Source: a virus. Taken from it: 64,000 bases of DNA. The position numbers and the translations under genes were made by a program. The notes beneath the pieces are model-generated. The model searched no databases. It was not told the origin of the DNA and worked only from the letters and a program-made list of their open reading frames with translations. Shown here piece after piece: positions 5-54,588 of this stretch (its first letter is position 1; every line of letters starts with the position of its first letter). The stretch lies in IMG/VR virus record IMGVR_UViG_3300033490_000001. One strand, 5' to 3'.

Positions 5-577
5 ATGATTACGATTGGAGAACTTGTAAAACGCGGTGTCCTCTCAATTAAGCGCGGACACGAGGTCGGGTCAATTTACTACGGCCGAGGTCCGATTCCG
101 TTTGTCAGAACAACTGACATTGTCAATTGGGAAGTAAAAATCGACCCAGTAAAGGGCTTGCCTGAGGAAATTTATGAACGCTTTCGTCGAAAGCAAGATG
201 TCAGACCAAACGATATTCTACTTGTCACCGACGGAACCTTTCTCATCGGTCGCACGGCACTCGTGACAGAAGCAGATGGTAAAATGGTCATTCAAAGCCA
301 CATTCGACGAATTCGCTGCTTGAAGCCTCACGAACTTCATCCTTATTTGCTGTTGTATCTCTTAAATACAAAACTCGTTCAGCAGCAAATAAAGGATAAG
401 ACATTCGTTCAAGCCACGATCTCTACTGTTGGTGAGCGATTACTCGAAATAGTGCTTCCTATTCCCAAGGATCCAGAAGAACGAGCACGCATTATTGCTG
501 AAGTCGGTGCTATAATAGAGTTGAAAAAGCAAGCTAGAACTCGCATTGCCCAGTTGCTTGATCGACCGCTCTCTTGA
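5..577 (+). CDS. C-terminal target-recognition (type I HsdS-like) region of an N6-adenine MTase/specificity protein; probably 5'-truncated by the window edge
   Basis: TRD-like motifs (IPFVRTTDIVN, DILLVTDGTFLIGRTALV, YLLYLLN, LEIVLPIP) and a C-terminal helix; directly upstream of a REase-like gene. Confidence 0.7.
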   Translation: MITIGELVKRGVLSIKRGHEVGSIYYGRGPIPFVRTTDIVNWEVKIDPVKGLPEEIYERFRRKQDVRPNDILLVTDGTFLIGRTALVTEADGKMVIQSHIRRIRCLKPHELHPYLLLYLLNTKLVQQQIKDKTFVQATISTVGERLLEIVLPIPKDPEERARIIAEVGAIIELKKQARTRIAQLLDRPLS

Positions 578-16630: not shown

Positions 16631-17341
16631 TCACTCGACACCGTAGGCTGGATAGCGAGCGATGACCTGTCCGTCGTACTTGAAGTAAACTACGTCATTT
16701 TCGAAGACAATCTCCTCGCGCCCATCTTTGGAGACTGAGCGAGAGTACGTAATACCAAACTTCTTGTGGGTTTTCCAGAGTTTACGAAGGGCGTCGAGGA
16801 GCTTGCCTTCGGGTGTCGAGGTGTCGATGACTTCGCGCTCTTTGCGGCGCGAGTCCTTCGACACCGCTGCGATGATTTGTTGGATCTGCTCGTCGCTGAA
16901 GCCTTGGGACCGCAAAACCGCCTGAAGTGCGATCGCCCATCGTGGAGTCTTAGCGCCATTCTGCGACATAGAAACCACCTCCTGTGAATCGTCTTGTTGC
17001 GGCTGAGCTTCTGCCGCAACCCGTTCGACCCGAACTTCTGTAGCAACTTCTGGCTCGGATCGAACAGGGACAGCGACAGGCTCAGCGGTCTTTGTTGCCT
17101 TCGTGATGACGAGACTGTCCGCATGGACGACCCACTCGCTGCCGTCCGGCAGAACGATCTTTGCGGACTGGACGGCAGGTTCGACAGAGACGGCAGATGG
17201 GTTCATGAAATACGCTCGCGTGAAAGTCGGAAGCGCCATAGACTTCTGGCGCTGCCCGTCCGAGATTTTGACGAAGCCAGACGGGCTGATGGTGAGAGTG
17301 ACTTGGATTTGATCTTGCGTCGTGATGCGAAGCTCCTTCAT
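16631..17341 (-). CDS. Hypothetical protein
   Basis: 236-aa ORF with RBS. Confidence 0.7.
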   Translation of the reverse strand: MKELRITTQDQIQVTLTISPSGFVKISDGQRQKSMALPTFTRAYFMNPSAVSVEPAVQSAKIVLPDGSEWVVHADSLVITKATKTAEPVAVPVRSEPEVATEVRVERVAAEAQPQQDDSQEVVSMSQNGAKTPRWAIALQAVLRSQGFSDEQIQQIIAAVSKDSRRKEREVIDTSTPEGKLLDALRKLWKTHKKFGITYSRSVSKDGREEIVFENDVVYFKYDGQVIARYPAYGVE

Positions 17342-17371
17342 ACGACATCCCTCCTTAGAGATTTAAATTTA

Positions 17372-28924: not shown

Positions 28925-28977
28925 CCGCATCGCGAGAATTTTGCGCGATGCGGTCTCAATCCCACAATGGTGCGATT
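28925..28977 (-). promoter_or_regulatory. Repeated early leader element, copy 1 (19-bp motif + hairpin + RBS)
   Basis: On - strand: AATCGCACCATTGTGGGAT, then a CCGCATCGCG/CGCGATGCGG hairpin, then GGAGGTG. Confidence 0.65.
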
Positions 28978-28982
28978 GCGAG

Positions 28983-29354: not shown

Positions 29355-29406
29355 GCGCACCGCGCCCATTCTGCGAACGCGGTGCGCATCCCACATTGGT
29401 GCGATT
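29355..29406 (-). promoter_or_regulatory. Repeated early leader element, copy 2
   Basis: AATCGCACCAATGTGGGAT (18/19 identical to copy 1) plus a GCGCACCGCG/CGCGGTGCGC hairpin. Confidence 0.65.
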
Positions 29407-31471: not shown

Positions 31472-31533
31472 CATCGCGGCGCAACTTGAGAAAAAACTCT
31501 CATCGCGCCGCGATATCCCACAATGGTGCGATT
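31472..31533 (-). promoter_or_regulatory. Repeated early leader element, copy 3
   Basis: AATCGCACCATTGTGGGAT identical to copy 1, followed by an ATCGCGGCGC/GCGCCGCGAT hairpin. Confidence 0.65.
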
Positions 31534-32987: not shown

Positions 32988-33015
32988 TTTACTTTCGCTG
33001 AGAATCGGCTATAAT
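32988..33015 (+). promoter_or_regulatory. sigma70-type promoter of the GNAT-TGT operon
   Basis: TTTACT-16 nt-TATAAT, with CGGC immediately before the -10 box. Confidence 0.7.
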
Positions 33016-33079: not shown

Positions 33080-33499
33080 ATGCGGTTCATTCGTGTCAAT
33101 GAAGCGATTGACAAGTATGGTGTAGATAGAAAGATTTTGTTGGCGTTAAAGCGGTTGGGATTTGTGGTGTTTCACGGGTTCAAGTATGTTGATGAAGAAG
33201 GTTTATCGCTGATTGTTGAGAATGAAGCGATAATGAGTGCAATTAGAGAAGTTTTAGAAAGTAAGCCTTATGTTTACTATGACCCAAAGCGGTTTCGTTC
33301 GCTTTTCAAGAAAGCGATGCTAAGGCGTGAAGGTTTGGTAGGGACAGGTGAGTTAGCGCGGATGTTTGGGCGAAGTTTCCAATGGGCGAACAACATAGCG
33401 CGTCGGAAGCTAAATTCCGTGAAGATTGGCAAAAGGCGGTTCATCAAGGTCGATGAAGTGTTCTTTGATTTCGTTGACAAGGAGATGATGAAACGGTGA
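33080..33499 (+). CDS. Tandem HTH (excisionase/MerR-like) regulator
   Basis: IRVNEAIDKYGVDRKIL and VGTGELARMFGRSFQWANN...SVKIGKRRFI. Confidence 0.7.
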   Translation: MRFIRVNEAIDKYGVDRKILLALKRLGFVVFHGFKYVDEEGLSLIVENEAIMSAIREVLESKPYVYYDPKRFRSLFKKAMLRREGLVGTGELARMFGRSFQWANNIARRKLNSVKIGKRRFIKVDEVFFDFVDKEMMKR

Positions 33500-33927
33500 A
33501 TGTTTTAGCTCGGATGGCTGAGATGGGTGATCTTGGCGAGATCAAGGAGATTGCTGATGAGTTTCGTGACGAACTTGGGTTTGTGTATGAAGCTGAGCTT
33601 GTTCGTGGCGTTCAGGATCGTAGTGTGATTGTTGCTGAAGTTGACGGAAAAGTTGTCGGGTTCAATTATTTTCGTTGCCGAAAGGACAGGAAAGCGGTGA
33701 TTTACGCTATTGCGGTAACTTCACAGTTTCAGCGGCGCGGGATAGGAAGGCTGTTGCTTAGGAAGTTCATTGATATTGCGCGACAGCGTGGGTGCGTGGA
33801 AGTTGAACTCAAGTGTCCTGCGATGCTGCTTGGTGCGAACATGTTTTACAAGCGCTGTGGTTTCAAGTTCTGTGGCATTGTAGATGGCAAGAAGCAGAAG
33901 CTTGTAATTTGGAAGCTCGTGATTTGA
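33496..33927 (+). CDS. GNAT-family N-acetyltransferase
   Basis: VVGF, IYAIAVTSQFQRRGIGRLLL (motif A), ANMFYKRCGF; GTGA-coupled to the HTH gene. Confidence 0.92.
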   Translation: MNVLARMAEMGDLGEIKEIADEFRDELGFVYEAELVRGVQDRSVIVAEVDGKVVGFNYFRCRKDRKAVIYAIAVTSQFQRRGIGRLLLRKFIDIARQRGCVEVELKCPAMLLGANMFYKRCGFKFCGIVDGKKQKLVIWKLVI

Positions 33928-33934
33928 TTGGCAA

Positions 33935-34912
33935 GTGATAGTTATGAAGTTCTACAATGGTTCATTCGACCATTTAAAGCGAGTATTTGTGCTGATGGGC
34001 AAGCTTGTGGAAGGTTATGGTGGCAAGGTTGAGGTCAATCCGTTTGAGAACATGATTGTTGCTCCGTTGTTTTATTACAGACCTATCTTGGAATTTTATC
34101 GGTGTTGGCGGTTTGGAGAGATTGGTTTGCCGCTGAGGTTAAGTTCTGTAATCATGGACAGTGGTGGCTATCAAGTGCAGACCGGCAAGATAAGTTTTGG
34201 TGCGTTGCAGGTTAGGTTGAGACGGATTTGGTTAGAGAACGATTGGGCCGATTTTTATGTTTTGCCAGACCATGTGCCGAAGACTTCAGATTTAGACTTT
34301 GAAGTCGAACGCAAGGTCAAGGACACGCTTGAAGCTGGCGAACGGTTCTTGAAATTTCTGCCCAAAGGTAAGGTTGCTATAGGTGTTGTTCATGGCAGGA
34401 ACTTGCTTCAGGTTCTCGGTTGTGTGCGCAGGTGGCAGAGGCTTGGTGTCAGGTATGTTGCGTTTGGAAGTTTTGGAACTTCCGGACCGTATGGCGGTGC
34501 GAATGTGATTTCGCAGCGTTCGTTGAAGCTTTTGAAAGCAGTTCACGATGAAGCGAGATCGTTTGGCATGGACTTACATGTATTCGGGATAAGTTACCCG
34601 TCTTATGTTCGGCTGATAGTTGAGAACGGAATTAACCCGACCTCGGTAGATAGCGTTGGCTGGTGGAAGGCTGCTCAGTATAAGCAAGTATTTTTTGATG
34701 GAGCGCCGCAACGGTGCATTTTCACGGCGCGAACTATTCAAAAGAGGGTGCTTAGTATTGATGAAATTGAATCCGAAAAGGCTAGAGTAGGGCACAGCTG
34801 TCCATTTTGCGCTCGTGCTGAGATGCTTGCTGACAAGTTCAACTTGGCGTTGCACAACTTGATTGTGACGGTTGACACAATCTCCAATCTGTGCTATGAT
34901 AGACGCGAATGA
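33935..34912 (+). CDS. tRNA-guanine transglycosylase-fold enzyme, DpdA-like candidate DNA 7-deazaguanine inserter
   Basis: IMDSGGYQ, LPDHVP, GVVHG, AFGSFG, LHVFG, VDSVGW (nucleophile Asp), HSCPFC...LHNL Zn site. Confidence 0.85.
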   Translation: MIVMKFYNGSFDHLKRVFVLMGKLVEGYGGKVEVNPFENMIVAPLFYYRPILEFYRCWRFGEIGLPLRLSSVIMDSGGYQVQTGKISFGALQVRLRRIWLENDWADFYVLPDHVPKTSDLDFEVERKVKDTLEAGERFLKFLPKGKVAIGVVHGRNLLQVLGCVRRWQRLGVRYVAFGSFGTSGPYGGANVISQRSLKLLKAVHDEARSFGMDLHVFGISYPSYVRLIVENGINPTSVDSVGWWKAAQYKQVFFDGAPQRCIFTARTIQKRVLSIDEIESEKARVGHSCPFCARAEMLADKFNLALHNLIVTVDTISNLCYDRRE

Positions 34913-34930
34913 AACTTAAAAGGAGTGTGA

Positions 34931-35695
34931 TTGGCGATGGAGATCAAAGTAGATGAGCGGTTGAAGGGTTTACTTGAGCCGTTGCAAGGTGAAGAGCTTG
35001 ATGTGCTTGTAGAAGACATTTCCAAGCGTGGCATTCAGAACCCGATAATTGTTGACCAGAACGGTTACATCATTGATGGGCACACGCGCTATCAGATCGC
35101 TCAGATTCTCGGCATCGAGAACATTCCAATCAAGCAAATTGAAGTTTCCGATGAGGACGAACGGCTTGAGCGGGCATTAGCGTTGAACTTGCAACGCAGA
35201 AAGCAAGTTCCGACAAAGCGTTTGAAAGAACTTGCGCTTGAGCTTCATTCTCGTGGCTGGGATGTAGATAGGATCGCGCGGGCGTTATCGGTTCGGAAAG
35301 AGACAGTAAAGCACTGGATCAATCCAGTTCCGCCAAAAGACGAGCCTCCCGAAGTCAAAGGTTTGATGCAGTATTGGGCTATTGGGTTTTTGGTGAAGAT
35401 TCAGGGCTGGCTTGTTGGTGCTGAGAACTCGTTTGTGCTGATAGACAGGCGTTCTGACATGGTTGTAGTTTGGTTCACCCGTGGTGAGCGAAGTTTTGAA
35501 ATTGAAGTTCGGCAAGTTGGGCGTGACGAATATGTGGTTCAAGAGTGGCTTGTGGGATCTGAGGGCGTTCGTGAGATGAAGGTTGCTGAATTTACTGGCA
35601 CGATGAACAAGTCGATTGCTTTCATGCTCAGCAGGTTGAACCTTCCATTTGTTGACCTTGACGAAATTACGCAAGCAAGTTCGGTTGCAGGTTGA
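34931..35695 (+). CDS. ParB/Srx-like N-terminal domain protein with HTH
   Basis: LLEPLQGEELDVLVEDI...GIQNPIIVD...IIDGHTRY; WDVDRIARALSVRKETV. Confidence 0.85.
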   Translation: MAMEIKVDERLKGLLEPLQGEELDVLVEDISKRGIQNPIIVDQNGYIIDGHTRYQIAQILGIENIPIKQIEVSDEDERLERALALNLQRRKQVPTKRLKELALELHSRGWDVDRIARALSVRKETVKHWINPVPPKDEPPEVKGLMQYWAIGFLVKIQGWLVGAENSFVLIDRRSDMVVVWFTRGERSFEIEVRQVGRDEYVVQEWLVGSEGVREMKVAEFTGTMNKSIAFMLSRLNLPFVDLDEITQASSVAG

Positions 35696-37350
35696 AATTT
35701 TTGGCGGGCTGTGTTATAGATATAAGCGGACAACTTTGCTACATGGACAGGAGGTTGATACGCGTGGATGATTTCTTCAAAAATGGGATGCCGTGGCAGT
35801 ATCGCTATTGGGTTCCACATCTTCGGAAAGAGCTTACTGAGAACGCGATACTGAACATTTACTGGTTCTCCAGCAAAAGTTTCACCCACTTTTACCGCAA
35901 CGGGATGCGACTTGGTGTTGCTGAAGGGTCATTGACAGAGAATCTGAAAAAGCTTGAGGAAACTGAGTTTAAGTTCATACCGCTTGTAAGGCTAACTGAG
36001 GTAAGCGCTCTTGCTAAGTTGCGTAGGAAGGATGCTTACTTGGAATTGACGAGAGGCTTTGGTATTCCTGCGTTCCCAGTTGCCGTGAGCGACAAAGCTG
36101 TTTGGTGGTTCATCTTGCCGACGAAAGGGTTCAAACTGTTCTTGCAATCGCGGAAAGTTGAAACTCACAAAGTTCTGATGAGTTTCTGGATCGAGATCAG
36201 TGAATTTCCTGATGACTACCAGCGGAAGTTACTTGCTAGGTGTGCTGCTAATGGTGTGAGGTGGTGCAAGTTTGGTGGTCATATTTTCGTGCCGATCGGT
36301 GCTATTTTCAGCGAAGTTACCCAAGATGTCATTGATTTGCACCAGATTGGACCAGCTCGCTTCAGAGATGAGAGACGGTTTGTTGCTTTAAATCTGTTCA
36401 GGGCTGAAGTGGACACTGTTTGCGATGTCGTTGACGAGATAAACTTGTCGGTTGACACGATAGTTAAGAAAGGGTTCAATTTCCTGAGGCGCAAGGTTGC
36501 CGAGATGATGACTGCAGAAGTTAGCGATGAAGACATGATGCATCGTGATGAAGCGCTGATTGAAGTTGGCGAATTAAAAAAGCACGAATTTCTGCCGAAG
36601 CTGTTCAAGCTGAATTTCAGAACGCTCGAATGGCTCGACGATATTTCGATGTATTGCGAGCACATTTGTGGGCAAGTTTTTGGTGAAAACGAACGATATT
36701 TCACTGCGTATGTCAGGATGGTTGCCAACACAAAGTCGATGTTGCATCCGTATTCGCTGAAAGGACCGATAAAGGCAAGTCCATTCGAAGATGGAGATCC
36801 CGCCGTCCGGTTGTTGTTGCTTGCGCGGCAGCAGTTGTGCTTGAGAATTTACAGACGCCATGTCATACACGCTTATAGGGTGGATGTTTACCGACAGCGA
36901 ACGATGCCAGCTGACCTGTTAGCAAAGCATGTCGGTCATGCTATTAGGTGCATAGTTGACAAGTTCGAGCGGTTATGGAGCGACGAATCTGGCAGCAAGG
37001 TTGGAGTGGGAGTATTTTTCAAGGAATCGCAAATGAGCGTGAGAGTTCCGATGCCGAGAGAAGCTTTCGAAGCTATGATGGAACGGGTCAAAAGTTACAT
37101 TGAGACTAAGTGGAACAGAGATGCCACTGTGACGCTGGCGAGGACGGTTACGAAATCGTTTGTGAAGTGGTTTGTTGAGACATTCGGCGTTGCTGGGTTC
37201 AAGGTTCTGATAGGGAGCGCCTACGACGGCACGGTTCAACGCGTCATCGAAGCGTTTAACATCGTCAAGAGAAAGATTGACGACAGTTTGCGCCACTTCA
37301 TCGAACTTGCCGAAATGATGTTGATGCTTCCACAAACAGTCCCTCGCTAA
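35692..37350 (+). CDS. Large hypothetical protein
   Basis: 552-aa ORF overlapping the ParB-like gene by 4 nt; no motif recognised. Confidence 0.7.
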   Translation: MKFLAGCVIDISGQLCYMDRRLIRVDDFFKNGMPWQYRYWVPHLRKELTENAILNIYWFSSKSFTHFYRNGMRLGVAEGSLTENLKKLEETEFKFIPLVRLTEVSALAKLRRKDAYLELTRGFGIPAFPVAVSDKAVWWFILPTKGFKLFLQSRKVETHKVLMSFWIEISEFPDDYQRKLLARCAANGVRWCKFGGHIFVPIGAIFSEVTQDVIDLHQIGPARFRDERRFVALNLFRAEVDTVCDVVDEINLSVDTIVKKGFNFLRRKVAEMMTAEVSDEDMMHRDEALIEVGELKKHEFLPKLFKLNFRTLEWLDDISMYCEHICGQVFGENERYFTAYVRMVANTKSMLHPYSLKGPIKASPFEDGDPAVRLLLLARQQLCLRIYRRHVIHAYRVDVYRQRTMPADLLAKHVGHAIRCIVDKFERLWSDESGSKVGVGVFFKESQMSVRVPMPREAFEAMMERVKSYIETKWNRDATVTLARTVTKSFVKWFVETFGVAGFKVLIGSAYDGTVQRVIEAFNIVKRKIDDSLRHFIELAEMMLMLPQTVPR

Positions 37351-50559: not shown

Positions 50560-51205
50560 GCAAAAAGACATGAAGGTTTACTTCTCAAACGGTGTCGATC
50601 AGAGGCGTCGAAAATTCATTTCGGCGCTTCTCAAATGGCGTTACGGAATCTTGCAGCGAACCTATCAGCTGGAGGACGCTGACGTCATTATCGCCGCTAC
50701 AGAGTCTGAAGTCCAGTCGTATGCTACCAGTCCTGAGAAGTTGATTGTGTTGCCAGGTTACGATCTAGGACTGCTCCGTCGCGTTGGAGACGAAGTTCTG
50801 CATACAGGTCATACAAACAATGTCCCAACCTTATTAATTCCTCCCGGAGACGATTGGCTTATCAACCAATTTGAGCGAAGGCACTACAGGGTCGACAAGT
50901 GCCTCGCAGTCCAATCTGAACTCAACAAATTCAACAGCGCTGTCACTTCGGAACAACAAAATCAGATAAGGTCTGAAATCAGACGGCTTCTTATGGAATC
51001 GATGGAGAATGTCGATTACGTTGTTGTCTCTGAACGGTGCGGTACGATGCACGTAATTGTAGCTTCGATGGCTTCAGTTTTCGGCAAGCCAGTAATGGCT
51101 GAAGCTTATACTCCAGTTCTATCAGCGATCGTAGATTACTTCGTTGGAAGGCGAGAAGACTTGATTGCTTTGGTAGATGCGATGACGACAATGCGCGGTG
51201 GTTGA
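50483..51205 (+). CDS. Divergent GT-B-like fold protein
   Basis: DADVIIAA and DYVVVSERCG...ASVFGKPVM resemble the GT-B C-terminal signature. Confidence 0.4.
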   Translation: MQIMAEAEVIVQSAQAKVAAMKRHVKQKDMKVYFSNGVDQRRRKFISALLKWRYGILQRTYQLEDADVIIAATESEVQSYATSPEKLIVLPGYDLGLLRRVGDEVLHTGHTNNVPTLLIPPGDDWLINQFERRHYRVDKCLAVQSELNKFNSAVTSEQQNQIRSEIRRLLMESMENVDYVVVSERCGTMHVIVASMASVFGKPVMAEAYTPVLSAIVDYFVGRREDLIALVDAMTTMRGG

Positions 51206-54200
51206 AAATGAGACCTCTTCAGCCATTCAAGCCACTAAAGCCCGCTGAGGGCTATGGCAAGTATGAGTTCGATGACATCGATGAAGTCGTAGCGAACTTT
51301 GCATCCGAGCTTCTCGAAGAAGAAGGCGAACTTGTGGTTGAGCCCAAGTGGGATGGCATCAGGTTAGTCGTCCATTATGATGGTGAGCGTGTCGCCGCTT
51401 ACACCGAAGACAAGCAGCGCGACAGGGCTGAGATACTTCCAGCGCTTGTTGAAGAGATTCAGGAGAAATTCGGAAATCGCTCTGTCATCCTTGACGGCGA
51501 AATTCTTCTAGGTCGGATTGTCGATGGTAAATTCATGCCAGTTATGAGACCTGACATGATGAGAGTCGTCGTCGGCAAAGAGCCGATTACTGACCCGATC
51601 AGGTATGAAGTTTTCGATGTTCTTTACCTTGACGGCGAGGACATCCATAAGAAGCCATTCAGAGAGCGCCGAAAATTGCTTGAAAAACTGTTCGATTCGC
51701 TTGGGACAACAGATGTGTTGAAGCTCACTGAACAGCGCACCGTCAAATCTGTTGAAGAACTTCGCGATGCCATTGAATGGGCTTGTAATTTCATCGGGTC
51801 TGAAGGTGCGATGATAAAGTCGCTTGAGTCAGAATATGAGACCGATGGCAGGACAACTTCATGGGCTAAATACAAGCGATGGAAAGCGATCAAATGCTTG
51901 ATCATCGGAATTAGCAAAGTCTTTCCGCCAAACACTGATCCAGATGAGTGGCGAGAAGCTTTCAAACAGTCTAGGACATATATCTTCAGGTGCGCTGTTT
52001 ATGGGCCTGACGGCGAGACTTTGATTCCGATCGAATCTAAGCGAACACTGACTGAAAGTGACATGAAGCTTCGATATGTCCGAGCTGGCGAAGAGGATCC
52101 AGTTACTGGCAAAGTCGCTTCCAAGAGTGAATGGCGTGGCAGAGACGATCCTAGACTGTGGGAGATGGATGAACGGTTTATTCGTGAACCCGGAGATTTC
52201 GCTCTTGGTCAAACCTACGCAATCAAGGTTGAGGAAGGTGAGCCAAAGCTTGGTGATGTCGTTGAAGTTGCTCCGATAGCGCTGAACTGGTTTGAAGACG
52301 ATGAAGGCTACATGCACCTTACATGGATGCATCCTAAAGCTTTAGGAGTCGGCATAGATGACCAGTCCGAAGTCGCTGGCTGGGATCGAGTGACAGAACT
52401 TGTGTTGGCGTCTGGGCAGGATATGCCGGAAGTTAAAGTTGTCGATGGCAAATTGAAGATCGTCAAACAAGCAGTTGGCGTTCCTTCGATAGTCATCGCT
52501 TCAAAAGACAAGGACGATGAAGAAAGCGATGATGAGGATGAGCCAAAGAAGCAGATGCTACCGCGAATTTTTAAAGAAGCGTTCGGAGTAGGGTTGCCGC
52601 GATCGGTAATCAAAGCATGTGTCGCTGTCTTGCCTGACGATTACAAGACATACATTGAACTGTTCGCTGGTGCTAGCTGTGGTCTGTTACGATGGAAAGA
52701 TCGAAGACCGGATGAAACTGAGATTCTGATTGACATAGACCCATTTGTTGTAGCCTTCCTGAAAGTGCTTAAGTCCGGCGATTGGCGAAAGCTTCGCAGG
52801 TTTCGCTGGAACCCGAATAAGGAGCGATGGCTCGAAATTCGACAGGCGATTAGAGAAGGAGACTACGATGATGCTCCGATACTCAAGAAAGCGTATGCCT
52901 TTGCATACACTACTTTTTACTCCAACAGTAGATATGGACCAACTGGCTCGTATTCTCCAGTAAGGCGATACGAGTGGCGCAAAGAATTAGAGCGTGTCTG
53001 GGAAAGGTGTGCTCGGTGGGAGCAGCGGTTGAAGGGAGTTCGCATATATTGCATGGACGCTTTCGATGCTATGGAAAAATTTGACGCGCATGATACTTTT
53101 TTCTTTGCTGACCCGCCATGGGTAGTACCATCAGTCATCAAGAAAGGCGATAATCCATTCTACACGTTCTCTTGGGACATGGAAGAACACGAACGCTTCA
53201 TTGAAGCGTGCTCTCAATTGAAAGGCAGGATCTTAATCTTGAACCAAGCATTTGCCAAGAAATTCGCCAATCTAGGAAGCAAATGGAATTATCGGGTATT
53301 CACATACGTCACCGGTCATTCTCCATGGACAACAATTCCTGAGAACGTAAAGCGCGATAGGAGTTTAAAAGGCAACTTCTACAGGCACAAGATCTACCTA
53401 ATTGCCAACTACGAACTGCCTGAGATCCCGTCGGCTATCAAGAGAGAAGCTCTCATGCGGTCGGCTGATTCATCTATCGAGCGTTTAGTCGAAGAAGAAG
53501 AAATGACCCATGAAGAGCAAAGGCTTGAAGAGGAGCGCCGTTTTGGCGATCCATACAAAGTCAGGCACGATGTCAAGAACTTCGAGGATGGCTATGAGTT
53601 CGTTTTGATGCGACATTATCGTGGCTTGTGGAGCGATGCGGAGAGAAGCGCGATTGTTAAGCGCTTGAAAGAGTGGAAAGCTGCTGGATCAGAACGCCGT
53701 CGAGAAATCTGGGACGAGCTTGTCAAGGATTTGCATGTCTTACGACTTACAGTAGACATTGACACGCTCATAGAGCGAGCGCAGAAAGCCTCGGATGAAA
53801 GGCGAGATGTCTCCAAAGTTATCGATGACGCATTGTCCGATGAGATGCCGGAAGATGTCGATTCAATTGACGACTTGATCGGCGAAATTGTTAACTTGGC
53901 GAGTCTCCATAGCGATCTCAGGATAGTCAACCCAGCACAGCCCAAGACACAGCTTATCGGTTGGACGTTGACCACGCCGCCAGCTGCAATTCAGTTTCTC
54001 GACGGCGAAATTGTTCCAGTCCTGAGAGACAAGTTCCTTAACTACAAAGAAGGCGATCGAATTGTGGCTATCAGGAAAGCTCGGCAGCCTAAGGTGTGGC
54101 TTACTATTGTGACTCCATCCGAACCAATTCTTTGGGCGCCGCCCGGATCTGCTGGTTCTACTCCTGGAACTTGGGCGATGTTTGAATGGAAAGCTAATGG

Positions 54201-54588
54201 CGTTGTGTGGTTTGGTGTGCAGAGACCGGATTACCATGAAATGTGGCTGAAGTTCGAAGAATACGACGACGATGCTGAGCCATTAGATGGGAAGTGGGTT
54301 GCTAGGTTGCTCAAAGGTGAAGGACCTAAGATCGGGAAGGGCAGTGAGTATTGGCAATTTTGGTATCCTGAAGATCAAGGTCAACTGCCGTATGTTCTTA
54401 CGCACACTCCAGAACAAGCACGCAGCGAATGGAAAGGTAGACGCTACGAGTATGTAATCTTGAACTTGGATGTCGTGCCCATCGTGCTGGAACAGTTTCC
54501 TGAGATCAACGAAATCTTGCAATCAAGCAGGAAAGCACAGAAAATGCTTGAACAACTTGACAAGTGGCTCAAACTCGAGAAAGATTGA
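51202..54588 (+). CDS. Multidomain ATP-dependent DNA ligase + D12-class (Dam-like) N6-adenine MTase + LigD phosphoesterase-like domain
   Basis: VEPKWDGIR, ILDGEI, FDVLYLDG, EGAMIK, WAKYK, OB fold; ELFAG, IDID, FFADPPW; FVLMRH...LHSDLRI. Confidence 0.88.
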   Translation: MKMRPLQPFKPLKPAEGYGKYEFDDIDEVVANFASELLEEEGELVVEPKWDGIRLVVHYDGERVAAYTEDKQRDRAEILPALVEEIQEKFGNRSVILDGEILLGRIVDGKFMPVMRPDMMRVVVGKEPITDPIRYEVFDVLYLDGEDIHKKPFRERRKLLEKLFDSLGTTDVLKLTEQRTVKSVEELRDAIEWACNFIGSEGAMIKSLESEYETDGRTTSWAKYKRWKAIKCLIIGISKVFPPNTDPDEWREAFKQSRTYIFRCAVYGPDGETLIPIESKRTLTESDMKLRYVRAGEEDPVTGKVASKSEWRGRDDPRLWEMDERFIREPGDFALGQTYAIKVEEGEPKLGDVVEVAPIALNWFEDDEGYMHLTWMHPKALGVGIDDQSEVAGWDRVTELVLASGQDMPEVKVVDGKLKIVKQAVGVPSIVIASKDKDDEESDDEDEPKKQMLPRIFKEAFGVGLPRSVIKACVAVLPDDYKTYIELFAGASCGLLRWKDRRPDETEILIDIDPFVVAFLKVLKSGDWRKLRRFRWNPNKERWLEIRQAIREGDYDDAPILKKAYAFAYTTFYSNSRYGPTGSYSPVRRYEWRKELERVWERCARWEQRLKGVRIYCMDAFDAMEKFDAHDTFFFADPPWVVPSVIKKGDNPFYTFSWDMEEHERFIEACSQLKGRILILNQAFAKKFANLGSKWNYRVFTYVTGHSPWTTIPENVKRDRSLKGNFYRHKIYLIANYELPEIPSAIKREALMRSADSSIERLVEEEEMTHEEQRLEEERRFGDPYKVRHDVKNFEDGYEFVLMRHYRGLWSDAERSAIVKRLKEWKAAGSERRREIWDELVKDLHVLRLTVDIDTLIERAQKASDERRDVSKVIDDALSDEMPEDVDSIDDLIGEIVNLASLHSDLRIVNPAQPKTQLIGWTLTTPPAAIQFLDGEIVPVLRDKFLNYKEGDRIVAIRKARQPKVWLTIVTPSEPILWAPPGSAGSTPGTWAMFEWKANGVVWFGVQRPDYHEMWLKFEEYDDDAEPLDGKWVARLLKGEGPKIGKGSEYWQFWYPEDQGQLPYVLTHTPEQARSEWKGRRYEYVILNLDVVPIVLEQFPEINEILQSSRKAQKMLEQLDKWLKLEKD

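What the first reader, a model, noticed from the sequence alone, without database searches (positions are those of the whole stretch)
33080..35695. GNAT + catalytically intact TGT/DpdA-like enzyme + ParB operon with no preQ0 synthesis genes: candidate acetylated 7-deazaguanine DNA modification
Seen: one promoter (32988-33015) drives HTH, GNAT, TGT-fold and ParB-like genes in a tightly packed operon. The TGT keeps DSGGYQ, the substrate Asp (PDH), the nucleophile Asp (VDS) and a Zn site (HxCxxC...H). No folE/queD/queE/queC is visible in the window. Established: phage DpdA transglycosylases exchange DNA guanine for 7-deazaguanine bases to resist restriction, and ParB-like genes often accompany DNA-modification loci. 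Inference: the enzyme salvages a host preQ0/preQ1 base, and the GNAT could N-acetylate the aminomethyl group of inserted preQ1. To my knowledge that product is not a described DNA base. The GNAT could instead modify a protein or another substrate.
Basis: partly seen in the sequence, partly recalled or inferred. Interest (0 to 1): 0.86.

Follow-up and report, generated by a model that had tools for sequence, protein, structure and literature searches.

The report
Phage GNAT plus DNA-transglycosylase-like modification module
A hot-spring phage carries an acetyltransferase and a guanine-exchange enzyme that are a split copy of the predicted DNA-marking part of its host lineage's BREX-like "BRC" defence system, so it probably forges or imitates the host's self-mark on DNA, and that mark may be a base not yet seen in DNA.

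Summary
The genes at 33080-35695 are tightly packed: a conserved 139-aa protein, a GNAT, a 325-aa TGT-fold enzyme with its catalytic and zinc residues intact, and a ParB-like protein. A conserved 552-aa gene follows. No folE, queD, queE, queC or queF is found in the 64-kb window.

The main result is a gene fusion. Most relatives of the TGT-like protein are single GNAT-TGT proteins. In cellular loci of at least six groups (Armatimonadota, Binatia, Ignavibacterium, Desulfovirgula, Chloroflexaceae, Anaerolineae) these head the BRC (BREX-Related Capture) operon, predicted by computer analysis in NAR 2026 (PMC12839542). The phage copies nest among Fervidibacter fusions and carry no BRC restriction genes.

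Sister phages vary: GNAT+TGT+ParB, TGT+ParB without GNAT, or fused GNAT-TGT without ParB. The Fervidibacter family lacks QueC and QueF but keeps Tgt and QueA. Distant family members sit in virus-like contigs beside preQ0 or QueF genes.

Best reading (about 0.5): the phage exchanges guanine in its own DNA for a 7-deazaguanine-type base, which the GNAT acylates, to evade BRC and restriction. The chemistry is untested. The acetyl-preQ1 idea is plausible but not shown, and was partly anticipated for the cellular systems. Earlier notes of this scan covered cellular BRC loci on other DNA.

The parts
32988..33015 (+). sigma-70-like promoter match (TTTACT-16-TATAAT) in the 231-bp divergent intergenic region
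   Evidence: 10 of 12 matches; sequence. Not above chance in shuffles, but plausible by position between the leftward early genes and the rightward block.
33080..33499 (+). 139-aa conserved first gene of the module, possibly DNA-binding (weak HTH_17)
   Evidence: E=0.044, below cut-off. Homologues stand directly upstream of the TGT, or of GNAT+TGT, in sister phages at 37-100% identity.
33496..33927 (+). GNAT acetyltransferase (143 aa), a split version of the N-terminal domain of GNAT-TGT fusion proteins
   Evidence: Acetyltransf_1 3e-17; RimI-like 4e-12. (36% identity, E=4e-24, to the GNAT domain of a cellular fusion). (32-45% identity to fusions in cellular loci).
33935..34912 (+). TGT-fold guanine transglycosylase-like enzyme (325 aa; the true start may be the ATG at 33944). 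It has the catalytic barrel and Zn subdomain only, with no PUA or tRNA-binding extension
   Evidence: D75, D112, H153, D239 and Zn ligands H287/C289/C292/H307 are conserved. H153 aligns with DpdA His181, where tRNA TGTs have Gln.
34872..34900 (+). internal sigma-70-like promoter match (TTGACA-17-TATGAT with TG) just upstream of the ParB-like gene
   Evidence: 11 of 12 matches. Function untested.
34931..35695 (+). ParB_N (DGHTR motif) + HTH protein (254 aa); a conserved partner of the phage TGT, absent from the cellular BRC loci examined
   Evidence: ParB_N 6e-7; many PHROG ParB-like and ParB-methyltransferase families; no DpdB model hit. (48% identity in the GNAT-less sister phage)..
35692..37350 (+). 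552-aa protein of unknown function whose gene overlaps the ParB gene by 4 nt; conserved after ParB in sister phages
   Evidence: 99%, 40% and 22% identity in L008, L005 and L006. No Pfam, PHROG or Atlas hit.

Best explanation
The window is part of a tailed phage of hot-spring Fervidibacter-like bacteria (Armatimonadota). The rightward gene block, which later holds the packaging and structural genes, opens with a DNA-modification module. The TGT-fold enzyme probably works like DpdA. It would flip out a guanine in double-stranded phage DNA and displace it through a covalent Asp239-deoxyribose intermediate, with Asp75 as acid/base and Asp112 and His153 reading the 2-amino-6-oxo edge. It would then insert a 7-deazaguanine-type base taken from the host pool, most likely preQ1, because the host family appears to import rather than make it. 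The GNAT uses acetyl- or acyl-CoA to acylate that base, either before or after insertion. The ParB-like protein plays the DNA-loading NTPase role that DpdB plays for DpdA. Because the GNAT+TGT pair is a split copy of the modification module of the host lineage's BRC defence operon, the mark most likely imitates the host's own self-mark. It would then protect phage DNA from BRC and from ordinary restriction enzymes. Shown here: fold, conserved catalytic residues, the GNAT-TGT fusion link, BRC context, phage context and absence of que genes. Inferred: DNA as substrate, identity of the base, acylation of the base, ParB as helper, and the anti-defence role.
For: Fold and residues; DpdA residue roles from PMC10164549. 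Fusion link. BRC context: every cellular locus with enough flank has GNAT-TGT followed by the same 281-aa, 166-aa, 1310-aa, 374-aa and HerA genes, matching PMC12839542. Phage context: terminase, primase, DnaB, capsid and tail genes; 27 phage-type loci carry TGT+ParB and none carries BRC restriction genes. Phylogeny: the phage clade (SH-aLRT 98) lies inside a clade (100) with Fervidibacter fusions. Deazaguanine link: distant family members sit beside QueC, FolE, QueD and QueE (L111) or QueF and QueD (L115) in virus-like contigs. Host pool: 19 of 20 genomes of the Fervidibacter family lack QueC and none tested has QueF, yet Tgt and QueA are present. Host link: three copies of a Fervidibacter-family CRISPR repeat core in the phage.
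Against: No chemistry was measured anywhere in this family. No que gene lies within 10 kb of any of about 95 close relatives. No YhhQ or QueT transporter was found in five genomes of or near the host family, so the base supply is unexplained. The family scores far below the DpdA model cut-off (at best 1.5e-11; 20.9 bits against 200 for the window protein) and is equally close to archaeosine tRNA TGT. The ParB-like protein matches no DpdB model. It is missing from sister phages with a fused GNAT-TGT, and the GNAT is missing from others. The complex prediction gave no verdict. No CRISPR spacer match confirms the host.
Confidence: 0.5

Rival explanations
1. Same purpose and same DNA base-exchange mechanism, but the incoming base is not a 7-deazaguanine. 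The GNAT makes an acylated guanine-like base from a common metabolite and the TGT domain inserts it, so the two-domain enzyme needs no que pathway.
For: No que gene lies near any of about 95 loci or in the window. The host family lacks QueC, QueF, YhhQ and QueT. The tight GNAT-TGT fusion across phyla fits a make-then-insert pair. GNAT-less phages could draw on a base pool made by the host's own GNAT.
Against: Every characterised TGT-superfamily enzyme inserts a 7-deazaguanine (established knowledge; PMC10516641, PMC10164549). Distant members of this same family are linked to preQ0 or QueF genes. The hosts keep Tgt and QueA, so they must hold preQ1. The Asp and His residues that read the N1/N2/O6 edge are conserved, which leaves little room for N2 acylation.
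Confidence: 0.2
2. The TGT-like enzyme inserts plain preQ1 or preQ0 into DNA and the GNAT does not touch the base. It acetylates a protein (the transglycosylase, ParB, or a host defence protein) or a small molecule as a regulator.
For: The GNAT is closest to RimI-type protein acetyltransferases (TIGR01575, 4e-12). Sister phages work without any GNAT at this position. In BRC systems the GNAT and TGT occur in only a subset of loci.
Against: Fusion of the GNAT to the transglycosylase in 105 of 245 relatives across several phyla argues for a joint catalytic task. RimI-like HMM similarity is generic for small GNATs.
Confidence: 0.15
3. The enzyme acts on tRNA (position 34 or 15), not DNA, and the phage reprogrammes host translation.
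For: The family profile hits archaeosine tRNA TGT as well as DpdA. Foldseek ranks tRNA TGT structures first.
Against: No PUA or other tRNA-binding extension is present; the protein is only the 325-aa barrel plus Zn subdomain. Cellular homologues sit at the head of BRC defence operons, where they are the only modification enzymes that the BRC paper lists. The phage partner is a ParB/HTH DNA-binding protein. His153 matches DpdA His181 rather than the Gln of tRNA TGTs. The host already has a canonical Tgt.
Confidence: 0.07

Closest known systems
GNAT/TGT modification module of BRC (BREX-Related Capture) systems (computational description, Nucleic Acids Res 2026, PMC12839542)
   Same: The phage GNAT and TGT are homologous to the cellular GNAT-TGT (32-45% and 30-46% identity). 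The cellular copies examined here head operons with DUF4007-like, small NTPase, BrxC-like, short PglZ-like and HerA genes, as that paper describes.
   Different: In the window the two domains are separate genes. No BRC restriction gene is present. A ParB-like protein, a 139-aa protein and a 552-aa protein accompany them instead, and the carrier is a phage. The paper has no phage-borne copies and does not mention que genes. The function is untested in both cases.
DpdA/DpdB of the bacterial Dpd system (PDB 7UI4; PMC10164549) and phage DpdA1-4 (PMC6884629, PMC10516641)
   Same: TIM-barrel TGT fold with a Zn subdomain. The general acid/base Asp, the nucleophile Asp, and the Asp+His pair on the base edge are all present. 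A ParB-superfamily partner is encoded next door, as DpdB is for DpdA. Some phages carry a transglycosylase alone and rely on host precursors.
   Different: The window protein scores 20.9 bits against a 200-bit cut-off on the DpdA model. tblastn against 50,697 phage records finds none of the characterised DpdA1-4 phages, only one hot-spring virus. The first Zn ligand is His, not Cys. The ParB-like protein matches no DpdB model. No DpdC or que genes are present. A GNAT partner is unknown among the described Dpd enzymes (no 'acetyl' or 'GNAT' in PMC10516641).
dPreQ1-decorating enzymes DpdN (formyltransferase) and DpdM (methyltransferase) of phages (PMC10516641)
   Same: The concept matches: an enzyme next to the transglycosylase modifies the aminomethyl nitrogen of preQ1/dPreQ1, giving fdPreQ1 or mdPreQ1. 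An N-acetyl analogue would be the next homologue.
   Different: DpdN is a PurN-like formyltransferase and DpdM has its own fold; neither is a GNAT. Those phages encode the full preQ1 pathway, whereas this one encodes none of it.
Thermocrinis Great Boiling Spring virus (BK013347.1), genes annotated 'acetyltransferase' and 'acetyltransferase/queosine tRNA-guanine transglycosylase'
   Same: An adjacent GNAT (40% identity) and TGT-like gene (44% identity over residues 4-254) in an uncultivated hot-spring virus.
   Different: It is an unrelated virus of Aquificae hosts. Its TGT ORF is short (257 aa) and lacks the Zn-binding C-terminus. The next gene is a sliding clamp and there is no ParB. The paper describing the virus does not discuss the pair.

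Membership tests
TGT superfamily (tRNA-guanine/DNA-guanine transglycosylases) | TIM-barrel fold with Zn-binding subdomain | tested here: met
   AF2 model pLDDT 94, pTM 0.92. Foldseek E about 1e-9 to 1e-10, TM 0.55-0.65 to bacterial, human and archaeal TGT and to DpdA. Zn ligands H287, C289, C292 and H307 are conserved.
TGT superfamily (tRNA-guanine/DNA-guanine transglycosylases) | Three active-site aspartates: acid/base, base-edge binder, nucleophile | tested here: met
   D75 and D239 are invariant and D112 is at least 90% conserved in 73 sequences. They align with the catalytic Asp columns of arcTGT and DpdA in the profile alignment (DpdA numbering D95/D130/D256).
bacterial DpdA (NCBIfam NF041059 equivalog) | Score above the curated model cut-off | tested here: not met
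   20.9 bits against a cut-off of 200. 42 of 73 family members hit the model, but the best E-value is only 1.5e-11.
DpdA-type DNA transglycosylases (functional class) | His, not Gln, on the O6/N1 edge of the base (DpdA His181) | tested here: met
   H153 (VVHGR) aligns with the VAHG of 7UI4, while T. maritima and P. horikoshii tRNA TGTs have Gln. More distant BRC copies (L016-L019) have Gln.
DpdA-type DNA transglycosylases (functional class) | Guanine exchange on double-stranded DNA | not testable with these tools
   Needs a [14C]guanine or preQ0/preQ1 exchange assay on DNA against tRNA.
DpdA-type DNA transglycosylases (functional class) | Genomic linkage to 7-deazaguanine synthesis genes | tested here: inconclusive
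   Absent from the window and from about 95 close loci. Present next to distant family members: L111 has QueC, FolE, QueD and QueE; L115 has QueF and QueD.
DpdB (ParB-like ATPase partner of DpdA) | Match to DpdB models; DGQQR-type NTPase motif | tested here: not met
   No DpdB hit in NCBIfam or PADLOC at E<=0.1. Only the generic ParB_N domain (6e-7) with a DGHTR motif is present. The functional analogy is inference.
GNAT acetyltransferases (Pfam PF00583) | Score above the gathering cut-off and the acetyl-CoA pyrophosphate-binding motif Q/R-x-x-G-x-G/A | tested here: met
   63.3 bits against 20.7. QRRGIGR is present, and a Tyr sits in the C-terminal FYKRCGF segment (sequence).
BRC (BREX-Related Capture) system | HerA/FtsK, PglZ, BrxC-like DUF6079, DUF4007 and the small NTPase in the same locus | tested here: not met
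   tblastn with the five L001 proteins finds none of them in the window. The window holds only the modification half, so it is a relative of the module and not a BRC system.

The most novel reading that the evidence does not exclude
The module writes an acylated base not yet known in DNA, either N-acetyl-dPreQ1 or an acylated guanine analogue made without the que pathway. By doing so it forges the self-mark of the host's BRC defence system. This would be the first case of a phage capturing the modification half of a BREX-like system that marks DNA without a methyltransferase.
Probability: 0.35. Interest if true: 0.85.

Novelty: new variant of a known kind. Interest (0 to 1): 0.7.

Why it matters
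Eight natural 7-deazaguanine DNA bases are known and none is acetylated, so an acyl derivative would extend DNA chemistry. BRC systems are a paper prediction with no experimental handle. Three things make their self-mark directly testable:
- a compact three-gene phage version of the module;
- natural variants with and without the GNAT or ParB;
- a cultured host relative, Fervidibacter sacchari, that encodes the fusion.

The case would also show phages countering a BREX-like system by copying its modification enzyme, as orphan methyltransferases do for classical restriction-modification. The thermophilic enzymes may also be useful for site-specific base exchange in DNA.

Tried and rejected
- Complex prediction of GNAT with TGT: no verdict, so it is evidence neither way.
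- IMG/VR scan with the single protein found no relative; the scan with the large alignment A1 could not run because it has no conserved stretch.
- No whole genome is held for the window, and the 76-kb sister contig could not be searched whole. Que genes outside the 64 kb cannot be excluded.
- CRISPR spacer search of about 60 kb of the window against 20 genomes of the Fervidibacter family: two candidate short matches proved to be a coding region and a ribosome-binding-site/start region, not spacers.
- Protein Atlas search for the 552-aa protein: nothing usable.
- ParB-like protein as a small terminase subunit: considered because of a Terminase_5/HTH_23 hit (3.8e-4). That hit covers only the HTH, and the large terminase gene lies 10 kb downstream, so I rejected it as the main reading.
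- Residue 181, which aligns with Ala232 of the Z. mobilis preQ1-pocket loop (numbering from memory), and residue 244. They are Gly/Trp in most GNAT-associated enzymes (residue 181 is Gly in 64 of 68). They are Glu/Arg in all 18 members of the GNAT-less phage lineage, which hints that GNAT-linked enzymes take a bulkier base. This is one clade, hence one evolutionary event, and L029 is a counter-example, so I do not use it as evidence.
- Fusion versus stand-alone state needs at least 6-12 changes on the tree, so the direction of transfer between phage and host is not resolved.
Full report
**Observation.** A fifth gene (35692-37350) overlaps the ParB gene by 4 nt. They open the rightward block of a divergent arrangement. 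GC skew changes sign near 32-33 kb, and a 231-bp intergenic region holds the promoter-like site 32988-33015. That site is a 10-of-12 match and is not statistically above shuffled sequence. A better match (11 of 12, with TG) lies at 34872-34900, ahead of the ParB gene.

**The window is a phage.** It encodes:
- a large terminase, DnaB-type helicase, primase, Sak4-like protein and SNF2-like helicase;
- a major capsid protein, tail tube and tape-measure protein.

The tape-measure gene runs off the 3' end, so the genome is larger than the window. The terminase is only about 27% identical to that of any phage in the 50,697-record phage collection.

**The proteins.**
- *GNAT (33496-33927).* It is a clear GNAT with an intact acetyl-CoA motif.
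- *TGT-like protein (33935-34912).* The 325-aa protein has no Pfam TGT hit of its own, only weak DpdA and queuine-TGT hits. A profile of 73 relatives matches archaeosine TGT (1iq8, 2e-11) and the DNA preQ0 insertase DpdA (7ui4, 3e-11) about equally. The AF2 model (pLDDT 94) has the TGT fold.
- *Catalytic residues.* D75, D112, D239 and the Zn ligands H287/C289/C292/H307 are invariant or nearly so. They align with the catalytic residues defined for DpdA: Asp95 acid/base, Asp130 and His181 on the base edge, Asp256 nucleophile (PMC10164549). H153 matches DpdA His181, whereas the tRNA enzymes in the same alignment have Gln.
- *Missing parts.* The protein is only the barrel plus the Zn subdomain, with no PUA or tRNA-binding extension.
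- *Family placement.* Across the family, 42 of 73 members touch the DpdA model, 23 the archaeosine TGT model and 18 the general tgt model, all far below the curated cut-offs. This is a separate branch of the superfamily.
- *ParB-like protein (34931-35695).* It has a ParB_N domain with a DGHTR motif plus an HTH, and matches no DpdB model.

**The fusion link.** Most relatives of the TGT-like protein are 455-560-aa proteins with an N-terminal GNAT domain. By phmmer, 105 of 245 collected relatives carry a GNAT homologous to the window's stand-alone GNAT. Pairwise identity is 36-45%. The phage pair is therefore a split version of one protein, which ties the two activities together far more strongly than adjacency alone.

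**Cellular context.** Fusions on cellular contigs of 0.2-1 Mb are followed by the same genes each time:
- a 281-aa protein;
- a 166-aa protein;
- a roughly 1310-aa protein;
- a 374-aa protein with a faint PglZ hit;
- a HerA-type ATPase (PADLOC mad8/HerA, 1e-22).

The same series recurs in named MAGs of Ca. Fervidibacter, other Armatimonadota, Binatia, Ignavibacterium, Desulfovirgula, Chloroflexaceae and Anaerolineae; the Planctomycetota locus shows only the large BrxC-like gene. It also recurs in about 50 further metagenome loci. This is the BRC (BREX-Related Capture) system described by computer analysis in Nucleic Acids Res 2026 (PMC12839542). That paper lists PglZ, DUF6079/BrxC-like, a STAND NTPase, DUF4007, HerA, GNAT and TGT. 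It notes occasional GNAT-TGT fusion and suggests 'acyl and 7-deazaguanine' self-marks. It mentions neither phage copies nor que genes.

**Phage context.** None of the BRC restriction genes occurs in the window or in any phage-type locus. None of the phage partners (139-aa protein, ParB, 552-aa protein) occurs in a BRC locus. Related phages, with terminase 74-79% identical, carry three versions of the module:
1. 139-aa protein, GNAT, TGT, ParB and the large protein: the window, L005, L008, L026, L027, L030 and L031.
2. The same without the GNAT: L006/L007 and about 18 more loci, plus L029 within the window's own subclade.
3. A fused GNAT-TGT followed by a 420-436-aa protein, with no ParB: L048 and L053. 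L097 carries a fusion in a different arrangement.

An unrelated Aquificae virus in GenBank (BK013347.1) also has an adjacent GNAT and a short TGT-like gene. Both are annotated, but the paper describing the virus does not discuss them.

In a maximum-likelihood tree, the phage stand-alone TGTs form a clade (SH-aLRT 98). That clade lies inside a fully supported clade that also holds the Fervidibacter-type fusions. This indicates exchange between these bacteria and their phages, but the direction is unresolved.

**Host.** Three copies of a 19-24-nt core lie in the early region at 28956-28979, 29388-29406 and 31515-31533. The first is an exact 24-nt match to the 30-nt CRISPR repeat of arrays in Fervidibacter-family MAGs, for example G010 contig 95. 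None is expected by chance. Together with the phylogeny, this points to a Fervidibacter-family host. No spacer match was found.

**Which base?**
- *No que genes nearby.* No folE, queD, queE, queC or queF is in the window or within 10 kb of any of about 95 close relatives. The queries were verified by Pfam and did detect a positive-control locus.
- *Host pathway.* In 20 genomes of the Ca. Fervidibacter family, 19 lack QueC. QueF is absent from the three Fervidibacter or related genomes tested. Canonical Tgt and QueA are present. That is the pattern of organisms that import preQ1, although no YhhQ or QueT transporter was found.
- *Link to deazaguanine synthesis.* Distant members of the same TGT-like family sit in virus-like contigs beside QueC, FolE, QueD and QueE (L111), or beside QueF and QueD (L115). 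In the tree they are sister to a BRC fusion, P0154.

These points make a 7-deazaguanine, and preQ1 in particular, the likeliest incoming base. Its primary amine is the obvious GNAT target. Formyl and methyl derivatives of dPreQ1 are already known, and no acetyl form or GNAT is reported (PMC10516641). An alternative remains open: the GNAT may build a different acylated base from a common metabolite.

**Verdict.**
- The enzyme is a DpdA-like member of a distinct TGT branch.
- The GNAT link is real.
- The idea of an acylated 7-deazaguanine is reasonable but untested, and was partly anticipated for the cellular BRC systems.

What is new here is the phage side: a split copy of the BRC modification half without any restriction genes, partnered with a ParB-like protein, in a phage family that shows natural GNAT-less and ParB-less variants. 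Earlier notes of this scan on other DNA described cellular BRC loci. I checked one of their leads, the QueF and preQ0 linkage, through L111 and L115. I rate this a new variant of a known kind, of fairly high interest.

Noticed in passing
window 28956-28979, 29388-29406, 31515-31533: Three copies of the core of a Fervidibacter-family CRISPR repeat (host repeat GTTTCAATCCCACAATGGTGCGATTGCTGC in G010 contig 95; the first copy is an exact 24-nt match). Each follows a GC-rich hairpin in the early region. They are candidate solitary repeat units or RNA anti-CRISPRs, or sites for host Cas6 processing, and they give a host link.
   Followed up: partly
window 51202-54588: A 1128-aa ORF in the head-gene region combines an ATP-dependent DNA ligase domain (PF01068, 5e-30) with a D12-class N6-adenine methyltransferase. 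It is a second DNA-modification activity in the same phage.
   Followed up: no
window 5-577: The first ORF of the window matches the type I restriction-modification specificity domain (Methylase_S, 5.5e-6). It is unclear whether it belongs to the phage or to a flanking element.
   Followed up: no
L116:3953-5130 (BK013347.1, Thermocrinis Great Boiling Spring virus): An unrelated Aquificae virus carries an adjacent GNAT (40% identity) and a 257-aa TGT-like ORF (44% identity) that lacks the Zn-binding C-terminus. The pair sits next to a sliding-clamp gene. It is annotated in GenBank but not discussed in the paper.
   Followed up: partly
L111:6816-20773 and L115:78-5447: Distant members of the same TGT-like family lie in virus-like contigs. 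L111 has QueC, the TGT-like gene, FolE, QueD and QueE, with a primase/D5 helicase and an IS605 OrfB/TnpB gene. L115 has two tandem TGT-like paralogues followed by QueF-like and two PTPS/QueD genes.
   Followed up: partly
TGT residues 181 and 244 (window 34475-34477 and 34664-34666), compared across L001-L105: Most GNAT-associated enzymes have Gly181 (64 of 68) and Trp244. All 18 members of the GNAT-less phage lineage have Glu181/Arg244. Residue 181 aligns with the preQ1-pocket loop of bacterial TGT. This is one clade only, and L029 is an exception.
   Followed up: partly
Genomes G001-G023 (Ca. Fervidibacter family): The family keeps Tgt and QueA, but 19 of 20 genomes lack QueC. QueF, YhhQ and QueT were not found in the three to five genomes tested for each, so how these bacteria obtain preQ1 is unexplained.
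   Followed up: partly
window 17336-17370 and G011 contig 401: The ribosome-binding-site and start region of a phage early gene is 91% identical over 35 nt to that of a host prepilin-like gene. It is probably a shared translation-initiation signal and not a spacer.
   Followed up: yes
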